From Paraspadella gotoi (Eukaryota > Animalia > Chaetognatha), in NCBI GenBank assembly GCA_051294375.1, contig CM119271.1, forward strand, positions 1,805,395 to 1,869,394: 64,000 nt of DNA. Direction: 5' to 3'. Every line of letters starts with the position of its first letter. The stretch's first letter is position 1. Below, in pieces: positions 10,449 through 15,185 of the stretch. The position numbers and the translations under genes are program-made. The notes below the pieces were generated by a model. It was not told the origin of the DNA. It did no database searches and was given only the letters and a program-made list of their open reading frames with translations.

Positions 10449-11144
10449 TTACCAAAAGTAGTGATTCAAATTAATTTGCTCAGAACGATTTAAAGGGACA
10501 AAATCAGCACGAGACCGTTTCGCCACGTTATTTTTCATTGTGTCTATAAAAAAGAACCGTTGCGCTTCCAAAGGCCAATCGCGTCCCATCTCGATCCAAC
10601 TCTTGGCGAAAACGTTTTCCGTTCCTCGCGAGTGAATCGAATCGTAAGAAAAAGATGCAAAACCCAAATCCGGGAATTTCTCGTGAAAATAACCAAATAT
10701 CGTCTTTTGCGGTGGATTGGGATCTCCGAAAACTTTGGCCATCGAATCGGATCCCTCGTTGCCGTGACTGAGAATGTTTCTGACGAAACGAGTCAAAAAC
10801 ATGACGCTGTTGATCTTGTACTGACCTTTTTTCCCGAAATCGTGGATCAGACTCGAGTCGATGAGATTAGTCCAATTGCATTCGTCCGAAAAAATGAATT
10901 TCGCGTTTTTCTCAAAAATGAAAAACGAATCTGCGATAGAGTCAGACTTACTTTTGCCTTCTTTTTTCGCGCTGAATGAGTTTACGAATTTTTCGTTGAC
11001 CCCGCGTAACAATTCGATCATTAGATAGGGGCTCATGAAGACTGGCGCTTCCAGAAGTACCTCGCATGATGGTCTCTTTTGCCATTCGGGATGAGTTGCT
11101 ACCTCGATAAGGTTATTGATTAAAAAGTTTTTGAGAGAGAGATT
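10449..11144 (-). CDS. Kinase C-terminal motif plus KEN ribonuclease domain (C-terminal part of the LRR receptor)
   Basis: Uninterrupted frame LIEVATHPEWQKRPSCEVLLEAPVFMS..IELLRGVNEK..NWTNLID..YKINSVMFLTRFVRNILSH..YFHEKFPDL. Compare IRE1 YKGGSVRDLLRAMRNKKHH..YFTSRFPHL and RNase L YQNTVGDLLKFIRNLGEH..YFQKTFPDL. Confidence 0.88.
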   Translation of the reverse strand, partial: NLSLKNFLINNLIEVATHPEWQKRPSCEVLLEAPVFMSPYLMIELLRGVNEKFVNSFSAKKEGKSKSDSIADSFFIFEKNAKFIFSDECNWTNLIDSSLIHDFGKKGQYKINSVMFLTRFVRNILSHGNEGSDSMAKVFGDPNPPQKTIFGYFHEKFPDLGFASFSYDSIHSRGTENVFAKSWIEMGRDWPLEAQRFFFIDTMKNNVAKRSRADFVPLNRSEQINLNHYFW

Positions 11145-14100
11145 CTACGTGTAAAATTATGAAGATATCTCCGATATTTTTCACTTCATTTGCCTGTGAT
11201 TTTCCAGATGAGAAATTTGAGTCAATCATGCAATGCACCAACTAAACTCAATCCAGTTTTTTAATCCTGTACCGTACTTCTTCTTGGCAATATGTAAATA
11301 CGACGCAAAGTCAACAATCATTTTTGTTATCTTGATCAATGACAGCTGAGACAGCGGTATTCTACAAATCTCTTGAAATTTTCAATGGCGACGTGTGATT
11401 CAATCTTTTCACAAGACTTTCTTGTTACTGAAATTGCTTTGCAAGTGTCAAAGCCAGGGCTCTGAAGAGAGAGCACAGCTTGGAGGTTATTCAAATTGCG
11501 TTTAAAAGTATTCTGTTCGGCGAATCCGCGTTTTGGAAAGCCTTCCACAATCTCAAAGTGTAAAGTAATTTTACAAATTTTCGTATTTCTTTGATTTGTC
11601 TTTCAAATTGAATTCAATTAATTTATGGATTCTCTTCATTTTCTTCAAACTTGACTCGGTTTTCATCCATTCTCTTTTCGAGCAAATGAAAAAGAAACAC
11701 CGCAGTAGTAAGAGAAACAGACTGAAGCTACGATGAAGGAATGTACAAACATTATATAACATAACAGACCGAACGCCGTTTAATAATGGGGATTTTTACA
11801 CTGTAGATCGTTGATTTCAAAAAACTCAAACTATTTTTGAAAACATTAACAGTCGATAGAAGAACAGTCAAATAATTACGACTATTTCAGCGTCATAAAA
11901 CCTGAGTTTAATACAGCGATCATTGAGTGAATGTTAGACCTATTAAATCGGAGATCGACTGTACGCAAATTCTTTAGCCCTTCTCAAACATCAAAAACTT
12001 AAAGAGTAGTTAGGTTGATTAAGTAACTCAGATTGAGCAGAATGACATTGGGCATAATTTAACTTTGTAAATTAAAGATGATCAATTGTTTTATGTTCGT
12101 GTGTATGAGTAATTAAGTGATGTGGTTTGCCAAGATAACAACTTGAAATATAGTTAAACAGGCTTCTGAGAGCAATTTACCTTTGTTATCGCTTCAGTTA
12201 TTGAGACACAGGAGCAATGTATTTGGAAACAGGGATGCCTGACGGCGCATTCTTCAAAGGAGGGGATATAGGTGCAGTGATGATTGCTGTATTTTCTTTC
12301 ACAACTACACTGCCATGGGTTAAAATCTAAATACATTTCAGAAATATTTCCCAATATCAACGAAATTGAAGGTTCAATGACCTGAAAATTATTTTCTCTC
12401 AGATCTAGAATTTTTAAGTTAGAGAGCTTAATCAATCCAAGTCTAGACAGACTGCTCAATTTATTATTCTTCAAAACAAGAGCATGAATATTATATCCTC
12501 GTTTTACGCTCTCAAAAGATAAGTTAAAATTGGTATTTGAATAATCTAAATAAGTCTGGTCGTAAGGGTAGCATCGAGAAAGTTTGGAAAATATCTCTCC
12601 TGAACAATCAACATAAAAATAACCATTTCGAATAGAGCACTTACATTTCAAGGGACAACAATGCGTAAGAAAGTTATTTTGATACAACAAATTCATCTCA
12701 TTCACGCTTGATCAACTTTAGAATATATATCAATTTCGCTGGAGTTAGGTTTATTATGCAACTATAATTTAATNNNNNNNNNNNNNNNNNNNNNNNNNNN
12801 NNNNNNNNNNNNNNNNNNNNNNNNNNNNNNNNNNNNNNNNNNNNNNNNNNNNNNNNNNNNNNNNNNNNNNNNNNNNNNNNNNNNNNNNNNNNNNNNNNNN
12901 NNNNNNNNNNNNNNNNNNNNNNNNNNNNNNNNNNNNNNNNNNNNNNNNNNNNNNNTATTTAATTGTTGTACTAATTCGTGATTAGAAAAGTAAAAGTTCG
13001 AATGATTTCCTTTAAATGAATAGTCCAGCGAGCAATTGAAGTAAAAACAGTTATATAAACCCGATAATATATTTCCAGAACAATCAATCTCTATGAAGTT
13101 TTCCTTATGTGAGCATTTACACAAAATCGGACAACATGGAATTTTCTCATATTTTTTTTTAAGAAATTCCATCATGGGGTAATATTCGGTTCCGCATGGA
13201 CACGGCCATCTTATGCCATCTAATTTAAGATTAGTCGTGGATTCAAACGCTCGAACTACTTCTTTTGAAAAAGATTGAACGCTACTTGACCGACTTAAAT
13301 CGAGTCTACTTAAATGTTCAAGATTCGCAACAAATTGGAAAGTTTTGAAAGTGTTAGATTTTAGGTAAACAGTGTCGAGTCTTTTGAATCCAAAAAACTC
13401 GGACGGATTGATAAAATTAAGCATATTGTATGAAATACTTAATTTTGTTAGTGAATTTATAACGTTGAAACAATTTAGATCGTTTTCGATCCTTTCAATC
13501 GAATTGGAATTAAGCTCAAGATTCTTAACGTAAACAAAAGGCCAATTCGCGCAATTTATTCGACGAATTTTATTGTTTTCAAGCCTCAAAGTGTCAATGT
13601 ATAAACTCAAAACTGACAATTCGATAGATTGTAAATTATTGGAAGTCAGATCTAACAAATTGATGGATCTAATATTTTGGAGACCTAATTCGTTCAGAGT
13701 GTAGATGCGATTTATACGTAAGGTTAAATTTCGTAATTGTTGAAGGTTACCAAATGCCTTTCTGTTTATTACTGTTATATTATTAACATCAAGTTCAATT
13801 GTTTCAATGGTTACCAAATTACTGAAACAATCATCGTCAAAGTGGGATATATAATTAAAACTAAGAATTAAACGCCGCAAAGCGGAGGAGCTTTTGAACC
13901 AATTTCTCACAACTTTAATTTGGTTATTACTAAGATTAATAATTGTTGTTAATCGCATTTCTTCAAAAGCGTATTTTTCCACACTGGAAACCTTGCCTAA
14001 TATAATAGAAAATTCATTTATTCGGCCAAGGTTTTTGAAATTATTTGCTTCTATTTTCGAAATATTACTTAATTTTAAAACCAGCGATTTTGACTTGAAA

Positions 14101-15185
14101 TTCGTTAATAGATTCTCGGGGATTCGAGCGAGGCTATCGAAAAAGACCCCATAGAGCAGTTGAGCCGAAGAAAAAACGTTTTTGTGAATTTGAAAATAGT
14201 CACCTGAACGACAAAATGCTGTGTTTGCGTCACAACGACCCACGGCTAACCGAGTCAGAAAACTCGAAAAGGAAAATGTTCCTTCATCGATGAAAATTAA
14301 TGGATTGTCCATCAAATACAAGGACTTAAGGGTCTTTAGACCAACGAAAGATCGATTCGACAAATACTCTATTTCGTTTAAATTCAAAAGTAATTTTCGC
14401 AAGGAGCGACTCTCGTTCGTGAATTTTATGTCCTTCAGAAAGTTATCGGTTAAATTCAAAAAATCTAGTTTTACCAAGAATGCCCGGTCGAAAAAGTATT
14501 AATATGATTCTTATCCAACCACAGTTCTTGTAAATTGACGAGATGTTTAAAAGCGTCTTTTTGTATCCAGACCAAACGATTTCCGCTCATGTACAAAATA
14601 TGCAAATCCTTCAGGCCGTGGAAAGTTGCGTTCGATACTTCCTTTATCAGGTTATTTCTGAGATTAAGCGTTTGTAGACCAACCACGTTCTCGAAGCAAT
14701 TGTCATCGATGTCGGAGATTAGGTTTTCTGAAAGATGAATCTCTTCCATTCTTATTCTACAAAAGTTCCATCGTAACGCGTTATTCTGTTTCCATAAAAT
14801 AAACAAAGCTCTGAGGCTTCCATCCCCGACAGAAATTCATCTTCTATTATCTCGATTCCGCCAGGTACGACAAGAAGCTTATCGGCGGAGCTCAAATTCA
14901 GAAGCAGTCCTGTACGAAGCGACACCAGATTGCTTACCGCGTGCTTGGTGAGATTTTTACATTGGGCATTTCTTATTTGCACCGTATACATTCCGTTGAC
15001 GAATTGTTCTCCCCAGGCGCAATTCACATTGTTATCAATGTTAGTCCCCCAAATTGAAGTTGAGTACAGAACAGACACAAAGTTTCGACCTAGTGCTGGC
15101 GTTGACGTTGGCGTTGACGTTGGCGTTGATGTTGGCCGAAAACAGAAAACAGAAGACATTTTATTTGGTTGAAATAAATCACCAT
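10449..15185 (-). CDS. Putative LRR receptor: signal peptide, Toll-like LRR ectodomain with multiple Cys clusters, TM, degenerate kinase, KEN (IRE1/RNase L-like) ribonuclease; frameshifted in this assembly
   Basis: Colinear minus-strand ORF pieces 15159-14752, 14806-14471, 14477-12762 and 12705-12154 contain LxxLxLxxNxI repeats, LRRCT (IRWPCPC, NPWQCSC) and LRRNT (CPILCKC..IDCSG, CPLKCKC..VDCSG). A further LRR GLKNLRTVDLRFN lies at ~11980-11940. A hydrophobic AFGLLCYIMFVHSFIVASVCFSYYC lies at ~11776-11700, and an alphaE-like LSLIKITKMIVDFASYLH at ~11347-11292. The open frame 11144-10449 encodes kinase subdomain XI plus KEN. Confidence 0.75.

What the first reader, a model, noticed from the sequence alone, without database searches (positions are those of the whole stretch)
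10449..15185. Toll-like LRR receptor whose cytoplasmic effector is an IRE1/RNase L-type ribonuclease instead of a TIR domain
Seen: colinear minus-strand coding for a signal-like N-terminus (MVIYFNQIKCLLFSVF), LRR blocks separated by LRRCT/LRRNT cysteine clusters, a hydrophobic helix at ~11776-11700, kinase-like remnants and a KEN domain. No TIR motif and no clear introns are visible. Established: this ectodomain layout is that of multiple-cysteine-cluster (protostome-type) Toll receptors. KEN RNases in IRE1 and RNase L are activated by sensor-driven dimerisation through a luminal or ankyrin domain. Inference: a ~1500-aa receptor in which ligand-induced LRR dimerisation directly switches on RNA cleavage, as an innate-immune or stress sensor. 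I do not know this LRR-TM-pseudokinase-KEN architecture from the literature, but could not search.
Basis: partly seen in the sequence, partly recalled or inferred. Interest (0 to 1): 0.95.

Follow-up and report, generated by a model that had tools for sequence, protein, structure and literature searches.

The report
Toll-type receptor wired to an RNase
A likely animal gene joins the leucine-rich-repeat sensor of a Toll-type receptor to a predicted membrane anchor, a likely dead kinase and an IRE1/RNase L-type RNA-cutting domain, a layout shared by three intact relatives and not found in our literature searches, so it would likely let an outside signal switch on RNA cleavage directly.

Summary
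The architecture is real. The window holds LRR blocks, Toll-type cysteine clusters, a hydrophobic helix and a KEN RNase (Pfam PF06479, E=1.5e-13) that keeps all four yeast Ire1 catalytic residues. Its many frameshifts look like long-read errors: one short-read contig runs from the LRRs across the N gap to the KEN, and one reading phase fits all 6 anchors (about 1,540 codons in total). Three intact proteins from unnamed assemblies (P0006, P0027, P0030; 1,300-1,457 aa; 30-39% identical to each other) have the same LRR-TM-pseudokinase-KEN layout. They are also the best relatives of the window's main LRR block, which points to one old fusion. The same pseudokinase-KEN module also occurs on a Roco protein (P0025). 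Ten literature searches found no such receptor. Likely mechanism: ligand-driven ectodomain pairing brings two KEN domains together and RNA is cut, as an immune effector without TIR signalling. Expression, location, ligand, dimer and RNase activity are untested. This copy's signal peptide, kinase middle and 3' end lie in error-rich or repeat sequence, and it lacks the family's C-terminal extension. The organism is unidentified.

The parts
15090..15185 (-). Putative start and signal-peptide region followed by a short 12-bp tandem repeat (S/T/P-like spacer in one frame); true frame unresolved
   Evidence: error-rich (17 gaps in 15044-15500 against short-read contigs); relative P0006 has a hydrophobic N-terminus (2.09)
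14755..15089 (-). N-terminal cap and first LRRs
   Evidence: frameshift-aware profile score 35.9, 0 of 40 shuffles as high; no Pfam hit; BLAST not significant
14474..14749 (-). LRR block
   Evidence: LRR_8 3.4e-20
12960..14498 (-). Main LRR block, 513 open codons, with an internal cysteine island (~14243-14200) and cysteine cluster 1 (LRRCT-LRRNT, ~13208-13019)
   Evidence: LRR_8 9e-42; colinear with P0030 over 458 columns, 28%, 1e-33; stretches match short-read contigs with 0 differences
12774..12955 (.). Assembly gap (182 N); about 117 bases in the short-read contig, bridged in frame
   Evidence: tables 5 and 8 (X1 record 5)
12157..12711 (-). Second LRRNT-LRR-LRRCT module and third cysteine cluster (an extra module compared with the three relatives)
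11790..12156 (-). Juxtamembrane LRRs and LRRCT, heavily frameshifted
   Evidence: profile score 42.8, 1 of 40 shuffles as high; contig phase lands on the LRR frame at 11941
11690..11779 (-). Predicted single transmembrane helix (sequence error-rich)
   Evidence: hydropathy 2.09; same position after the last LRRCT as the hydrophobic helix of P0006, P0027, P0030
11040..11689 (-). Reduced pseudokinase: helix-E-like segment at ~11345-11294, helix-F-like segment at ~11187, IRE1-like helices H-I at 11114-11040
   Evidence: helices H-I align with IRE1; helix E is the best but not significant profile match; only ~34 codons between E and F against 52-105 in six other proteins
10646..10976 (-). KEN ribonuclease domain; Y at 10820, R 10781, N 10778, H 10766 match yeast Ire1 Y1043, R1056, N1057, H1061
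   Evidence: roles of the residues from PMC3149027 (abstract)
10340..10544 (.). High-copy repeat overlapping the last ~30 codons and the stop at 10449-10451
   Evidence: depth about 650-68,000 against 18-147 in the adjacent KEN bins of the three DNA runs, many loose ends at 10541-10545
22901..25309 (-). Second copy of 14406-16791 (5' end of the gene and upstream), likely an assembly duplicate
   Evidence: 96% identical, 61 gap openings against 8 mismatches; ends at a 25-N gap

Best explanation
The locus is one gene of about 1,540 codons for a predicted single-pass receptor whose Toll-type LRR ectodomain likely binds an outside or endosomal ligand and would pair up, bringing two likely dead kinase-KEN modules together so that the KEN domains would cut RNA, likely as an innate-immune effector. 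Shown: the domains and their order, their linkage and common reading phase on short-read DNA contigs, the four catalytic residues, and three intact relatives with the same layout. Inferred from relatives: pseudokinase status (no glycine loop, no VAIK lysine, no catalytic aspartate) and a signal peptide. Inferred from IRE1 and RNase L: that RNase activity needs dimerisation, with the pseudokinase as scaffold. Assumed: ligand, compartment, RNA targets (bulk or membrane-bound mRNA, viral RNA, or one spliced target) and the immune role.
For: KEN hit 1.5e-13 with Y/R/N/H kept; R, N and H are invariant in 9 of 9 family rows. X1 record 5 (2,342 bp) spans 12956+ to 10530 across the gap; record 6 spans 12999-15228; X9 record 28 bridges 12999. 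One contig phase gives 10 stop-free codons at 6 of 6 anchors, the other two at 1 of 6 and 2 of 6. Coding frames have 0 stops in 480 and 183 codons where contigs match well, the other frames 43-50 and 5-8. P0006, P0027 and P0030 each carry LRR_8, weak Pkinase and Ribonuc_2-5A in one ORF. The window's main LRR block is closer to them (127, 116, 79 bits) than to 25 other LRR proteins, most of them Toll-like (best 53.5). A model of family member P0002 matches the IRE1 kinase-RNase (Z 16.4, rmsd 3.9, 254 aligned) and RNase L (Z 13.2), next chain 7.8. The same module sits on an LRR-Roco protein (P0025), a shuffling pattern typical of defence effectors (PMC3710099, section 9).
Against: No transcript, location, ligand or activity data. 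The corrected sequence could not be read base by base, so stops in the error-rich 12150-11140 stretch are not excluded. The kinase middle is not significant in the window. The window's KEN region scores higher on an IRE1-set profile (91.8 bits) than on the family profile (78.9), and its tree position beside the family is unstarred (94/85) on a long branch. The catalytic Y is H in P0006 and P0030. The family's 240-294 residues after the catalytic motif (ubiquitin-like in P0002) are only 104 here and the end lies in a repeat. Toll-type ectodomains also act in development (PMC8609888, abstract and passages). The shorter LRR pieces do not prefer the family over Tolls.
Confidence: 0.52

Rival explanations
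1. It is an ER-resident IRE1 variant: the LRR domain faces the ER lumen, senses a client, misfolded protein or luminal signal, and drives IRE1-style decay or splicing of ER-bound mRNA; no pathogen sensing.
For: Same topology as IRE1; the window keeps IRE1-like helices H-I and scores higher on the IRE1 profile; KEN is tied to the endomembrane system (PMC3710099, section 9).
Against: The ectodomain has the multiple-cysteine-cluster layout of surface Toll receptors; the family diverges fast (30-39% identity) and moves the module between sensors, unlike conserved IRE1.
Confidence: 0.15
2. It is a developmental or cell-contact receptor: a self ligand (Spaetzle-like or adhesion partner) triggers local cutting of selected mRNAs, or the cytoplasmic part acts as a scaffold that binds RNA or partners with little cleavage.
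For: Toll receptors have developmental roles (PMC8609888); the catalytic Y varies in 2 of 3 intact relatives; few family members were found, so no large expansion is shown.
Against: R, N and H are invariant across 9 family rows; low identity and sensor swapping fit conflict genes better; the searches are word-limited, so low counts say little.
Confidence: 0.14
3. The receptor family is real but this copy is a recent pseudogene or a truncated allele: a repeat inserted near 10544 removed the C-terminal extension, and the shrunken kinase is decay.
For: 3' end in a high-copy repeat; no trace of the extension in the next 5 kb (6 of 8 shuffles as high); kinase helix E-F spacing about half that of relatives.
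Against: 663 codons of well-matched sequence have no stop; one phase fits 6 of 6 anchors; all four catalytic residues are kept; IRE1 itself ends 55-61 residues after the motif, so the extension is not needed for a KEN fold.
Confidence: 0.16
4. Artefact: an LRR gene and a separate KEN gene were joined by misassembly at the gap or in long-read fill.
For: The window is error-prone and holds duplicated segments; no listed contig spans the whole gene.
Against: One short-read contig covers LRR, TM and KEN, gap included, in one phase; three unrelated assemblies give the same fusion in intact ORFs.
Confidence: 0.03

Closest known systems
IRE1/ERN1 (yeast Ire1p, PDB 2rio, 3fbv; human IRE1alpha)
   Same: Type I membrane topology, kinase-fold followed by KEN, catalytic Y/R/N/H.
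   Different: Toll-type LRR ectodomain in place of the luminal unfolded-protein sensor; kinase lacks catalytic motifs in the relatives and is shortened; family motif RNIxxH rather than RNKxxH.
RNase L (PDB 4o1o)
   Same: Sensor repeat domain, pseudokinase, KEN; immune RNase activated by ligand-driven dimerisation (PMC10400998, section 6); fold match Z 13.2 for P0002.
   Different: RNase L is soluble, uses ankyrin repeats to bind 2-5A and is limited to jawed vertebrates (PMC10400998); here the sensor is an extracellular LRR across a membrane and no second messenger is needed.
[quoted passage not shown]
   Same: LRR block, LRRCT-LRRNT, short LRR block, LRRCT, one TM (definition in PMC8609888).
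   Different: No TIR domain; the cytoplasmic part is an enzyme module, so no MyD88/NF-kB relay is implied.
Lineage-specific KEN expansions in Oikopleura and monocots (PMC3710099)
   Same: Divergent KEN domains predicted to be active defence RNases.
   Different: Described as solo KEN or fused to kinase, ankyrin, CCCH, ubiquitin or BRCT; no LRR-TM fusion is listed. Whether this family is the Oikopleura one could not be tested.
Plant LRR receptor kinases (recalled, no call)
   Same: LRR ectodomain, TM, kinase fold, ligand-induced pairing.
   Different: Different LRR type and kinase lineage; output is phosphorylation, no RNase.

Membership tests
KEN/HEPN RNase (PF06479) | Profile hit above the curated cut-off | tested here: met
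   51.4 bits against 23.3
KEN/HEPN RNase (PF06479) | R-x4-H motif with the polar residue after R, and the partner tyrosine | tested here: met
   Y109, R122, N123, H127 align with Ire1 Y1043, R1056, N1057, H1061
KEN/HEPN RNase (PF06479) | Metal-independent endoribonuclease activity | not testable with these tools
   needs an assay
IRE1 orthologues | Luminal unfolded-protein sensor domain | tested here: not met
   N-terminal region is LRR
IRE1 orthologues | Active kinase motifs (glycine loop, VAIK, HRD) | tested here: inconclusive
   absent in P0006, P0027, P0030, present in two IRE1 controls; unreadable in the window, where spacing suggests a deletion
IRE1 orthologues | Single TM between sensor and kinase-KEN | tested here: met
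   hydrophobic helix at 11776 and in all three relatives; hydropathy only, window sequence error-rich
RNase L | Ankyrin repeats binding 2-5A | tested here: not met
   no ankyrin hit in 7 window pieces or in three relatives
RNase L | Grouping with the RNase L clade | not tested
   no RNase L sequence was in the tree
Toll-like receptors | Extracellular LRRs plus one TM | tested here: met
Toll-like receptors | Intracellular TIR domain | tested here: not met
   no TIR hit in window pieces or three relatives, while 2 of 2 Toll controls scanned hit TIR
Toll-like receptors (mcc ectodomain) | Two or more LRRCT clusters with an internal LRRNT | tested here: met
   read from cysteine patterns, Pfam LRRCT/LRRNT did not hit
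P0006/P0027/P0030 LRR-KEN receptor family (defined here) | Colinear ectodomain with internal cysteine island | tested here: met
P0006/P0027/P0030 LRR-KEN receptor family (defined here) | KEN groups with the family | tested here: inconclusive
   sister to the family at 94/85, unstarred; profile scores favour IRE1
P0006/P0027/P0030 LRR-KEN receptor family (defined here) | Long C-terminal extension after KEN | tested here: not met
   104 residues against 239-294; none found downstream; the end lies in a repeat

The most novel reading that the evidence does not exclude
An undescribed class of animal pattern-recognition receptors in which a Toll ectodomain swapped its TIR for an IRE1-derived pseudokinase-RNase, giving a one-protein sense-and-destroy switch at the cell surface or endosome. 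It would be one arm of a modular immune system that bolts the same RNase onto several sensors (Toll-type LRR, LRR-Roco), and could stand in for TIR signalling in a lineage with a reduced Toll pathway.
Probability: 0.35. Interest if true: 0.93.

Novelty: new variant of a known kind. Interest (0 to 1): 0.83.

Why it matters
All described Toll receptors signal through TIR, and the two studied KEN RNases are gated by an ER-lumen sensor (IRE1) or a soluble second messenger (RNase L). A conserved receptor that puts a KEN RNase directly under a Toll-type ectodomain would be a third gating mode and an independent route to an RNase L-like immune effector outside jawed vertebrates. It makes a testable candidate for the open question of how animals with few or no TLRs respond to microbes (posed in PMC8609888), and offers a natural template for ligand-gated RNases. 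TLR surveys require a TIR domain, so they would have binned such genes as LRR-only.

Tried and rejected
No whole genome is held, so copy number, presence of ordinary IRE1 or TLRs, and the organism could not be checked. No RNA holder was listed among 9 runs; X9 is only a guessed RNA run and is not used as expression evidence. Base-level correction of the TM and kinase region was not obtained, which leaves internal stops there open. The model of the window's KEN piece was poor (pLDDT 46) and gave no fold match. Single-sequence and profile frameshift-aware alignments did not detect the kinase middle; profile slices for cap, island, TM, kinase and extension gave no significant hit in six-frame pieces. 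A JGI metagenome scan gave 25 loci, all LRR matches, 0 of 25 with kinase-KEN at E<=1. The Atlas returned only generic KEN and IRE1 clusters. My guesses at the lineage (acoel, ctenophore, appendicularian tunicate) come from recall and stay unverified; two papers read for that (PMC12849515, PMC11797021, passages) do not mention such a receptor. A paper on the Oikopleura genome was not held. Earlier-findings look-ups by place, sequence and two word sets were empty.
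Full report
What is in the window. The minus strand from about 15185 to 10449 reads as protein in pieces. Pfam on 7 pieces gave LRR_8 in three and Ribonuc_2-5A (KEN) in one (1.5e-13); three had no hit and none hit TIR. The KEN piece aligns with yeast Ire1 so that Y109, R122, N123 and H127 fall on Y1043, R1056, N1057 and H1061, the catalytic set named in PMC3149027 (abstract seen). 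Just before it lies the end of a kinase C-lobe that aligns with IRE1 proteins. A hydrophobic stretch begins at 11776 (2.09; a second frame gives 1.73).

Why it is broken. The window is an error-prone assembly: 14406-16791 recurs at 22901-25309 with 61 gap openings but 8 mismatches. Short-read contigs from 4 of the 9 listed runs were laid on 10300-15500. Listed pieces within 12956-14436 match with 0 differences and 10586-11134 with 1 substitution and 2 gaps, whereas the frameshifted parts carry dozens of indels (37 gaps in 11941-12696, 27 in 11300-11649). The breaks therefore cluster where the window disagrees with short reads. In the well-matched stretches the coding frame has 0 stops in 480 and in 183 codons, the other frames 43-50 and 5-8.

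Is it one gene? X1 record 5 (2,342 bp) runs from above 12956 across the N gap to 10530 and so carries LRRs, TM and KEN on one contig; record 6 covers 12999-15228, and X9 record 28 bridges their meeting point. No listed piece spans the whole gene. From the printed anchors, one contig phase lands on 10 stop-free codons at 6 of 6 anchors, each time in the protein-like frame (second LRR ORF, juxtamembrane LRR, post-TM basic stretch, helix E, helix F, KEN ORF); the other phases do so at 1 of 6 and 2 of 6. That phase also continues the 513-codon ORF if record 5 starts at 12999, which I infer from the joint table. The gap holds about 117 bases and the gene about 1,540 codons. This shows phase, not absence of stops, and anchors next to indels can be off by a base. 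The best-covering run could be related to the assembled sample, but as short-read contigs it does not share long-read errors.

Relatives. A full HMMER search with the KEN piece over 1.84 billion representatives gave 19 hits, none better than 3e-9. Pfam on 18 of them and alignment split these into IRE1-like proteins and a divergent set. One of that set, P0006 (1,457 aa), is an intact ORF with hydrophobic N-terminus, LRRs, TM, weak kinase (1e-7) and KEN. Two word-based searches added P0027 (1,368 aa; 2 hits of 5,830 candidates, one being P0006) and P0030 (1,300 aa; 2 of 5,087), both with LRR, weak kinase and KEN. All three come from unnamed ENA assemblies and are 30-39% identical. The window's 513-residue LRR block aligns end to end with P0030 (458 columns, 28%, 1e-33), including an unusual cysteine island, and scores 127, 116 and 79 bits on the three against at most 53.5 on 25 other LRR proteins; the two shorter LRR pieces do not discriminate. 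In a 21-row KEN tree the window is sister to the 9 divergent rows (94/85, unstarred, long branch), but an IRE1-set profile scores it higher than the family profile (91.8 against 78.9), likely because it keeps IRE1-like helices H-I. I read this as an early-diverging member of one old fusion; an independent fusion is not excluded.

The ectodomain. The layout (long LRR block, LRRCT-LRRNT, short block, LRRCT, TM) is the mcc Toll type defined in PMC8609888 (passages). A metagenome scan with the three relatives returned 25 loci; 0 of 25 had kinase-KEN, most end in TIR-like sequence by eye, and 2 of 2 scanned hit TIR. Their cysteine module scores up to 20.4 bits on the family profile, the window's two copies 34.3 and 30.1. 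The window has one module more than its relatives. By the published definition it is not a TLR.

The cytoplasmic part. P0006, P0027 and P0030 lack the glycine loop, the VAIK lysine and the catalytic aspartate, all present in two IRE1 controls, so the family kinase is likely dead. In the window the middle of the kinase is not significant (10 of 40 shuffles as high); contig lengths put only ~34 codons between the helix-E-like and helix-F-like segments, against 52-71 in four family members and 92-105 in two IRE1s, which suggests loss of the activation segment; the helix-F assignment is by eye. A model of soluble family member P0002 (pLDDT 63, N-lobe unresolved) matches IRE1 kinase-RNase first (E 7e-6; Z 16.4, RNase L 13.2, next 7.8), with ubiquitin-like folds at the C-terminus. 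The window has 104 residues after the catalytic motif against 239-294 in four family members, no trace of the extension downstream, and its last ~30 codons overlap a high-copy repeat. It may be naturally shorter, truncated by an insertion, or spliced. P0025, in the same cluster as P0002, puts this module behind LRR and Roc domains; it is one assembled record, and a cluster mate (P0022) ends before the module.

How it likely works. IRE1 and RNase L are both sensor-kinase-KEN proteins; in RNase L the kinase domain serves dimerisation (PMC10400998, section 6), and in Ire1 two RNase subunits dock the RNA (PMC3149027, abstract). Toll ectodomains pair on ligand binding (own knowledge). The simplest reading is ligand-driven pairing that assembles a KEN dimer on a pseudokinase scaffold and cuts RNA. 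An immune role is favoured by the Toll-type sensor, fast divergence and sensor swapping, but nothing here tests ligand, location, dimer or activity. I put the architecture at about 0.93, a working gene in this species at about 0.8, and the full immune-gated-RNase reading at 0.52. Rivals: ER-resident IRE1 variant (0.15), developmental or scaffold receptor (0.14), decayed or truncated copy (0.16), misassembly (0.03).

Novelty. PMC3710099 (passages, section 9) lists KEN fusions to kinase, ankyrin, CCCH, ubiquitin and BRCT and solo expansions in Oikopleura and monocots, no LRR-TM; only a 4,325-character supplement was searchable. PMC10400998 (passages, section 6) has no mention of LRR in its text, but its architecture figure and supplement could not be seen and may bear on this. 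Ten searches (listings and abstract starts) showed no LRR-TM-KEN receptor; three returned no paper at all. Subscription journals are mostly missing. The proteins sit in databases with these Pfam labels but without names. I file it as a new variant of the sensor-kinase-KEN kind. Earlier scan notes report other sensor-KEN fusions (a sea-squirt RIG-I fusion, two protist proteins); they are unchecked and only suggest that the module is shuffled repeatedly. The organism is not identified; an animal is inferred from the Toll-type ectodomain.

Noticed in passing
P0025 (1,599 aa), P0022, P0002 (one 90% cluster): An LRR-Roc(-COR-like) protein with two internal hydrophobic helices ends in the same pseudokinase-KEN and ubiquitin-like domains; cluster mates hold only the front or only the back part, which may be isoforms or assembly variants. 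A Roco-KEN fusion was not seen in the literature listing.
   Followed up: partly
P0005 (955 aa), P0013 (421 aa): Soluble-looking family members; P0005 appears to repeat a pseudokinase fragment plus a helical domain before the KEN.
   Followed up: no
window 35455-36181 and 40121-40762 (+): Frameshifted ORFs resembling a Monjiviricetes fusion glycoprotein (PF24664, 2e-7), likely an endogenous viral element; the region 32160-36607 recurs at 36607-41025 with 289 gap openings, likely an assembly duplicate.
   Followed up: partly
window 13222-14436, runs X2 and X4: A second version of the LRR region about 87% identical at similar depth (64 of 481, 71 of 552, 33 of 265 letters differ): a paralogue or a highly divergent allele.
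   Followed up: no
P0001 (Rumex salicifolius, 922 aa): Plant protein with two tandem kinase-KEN units.
   Followed up: no
window 27577-27652 (+): Single tRNA-Ala(AGC) gene.
   Followed up: no
window 5522-6461 and 7338-8288: Inverted repeat of about 950 bp, 94% identical, likely a transposon's arms.
   Followed up: no
L006-L025: An expanded set of mcc Toll-like genes in JGI metagenome contigs, several with two internal cysteine modules like the window's.
   Followed up: partly
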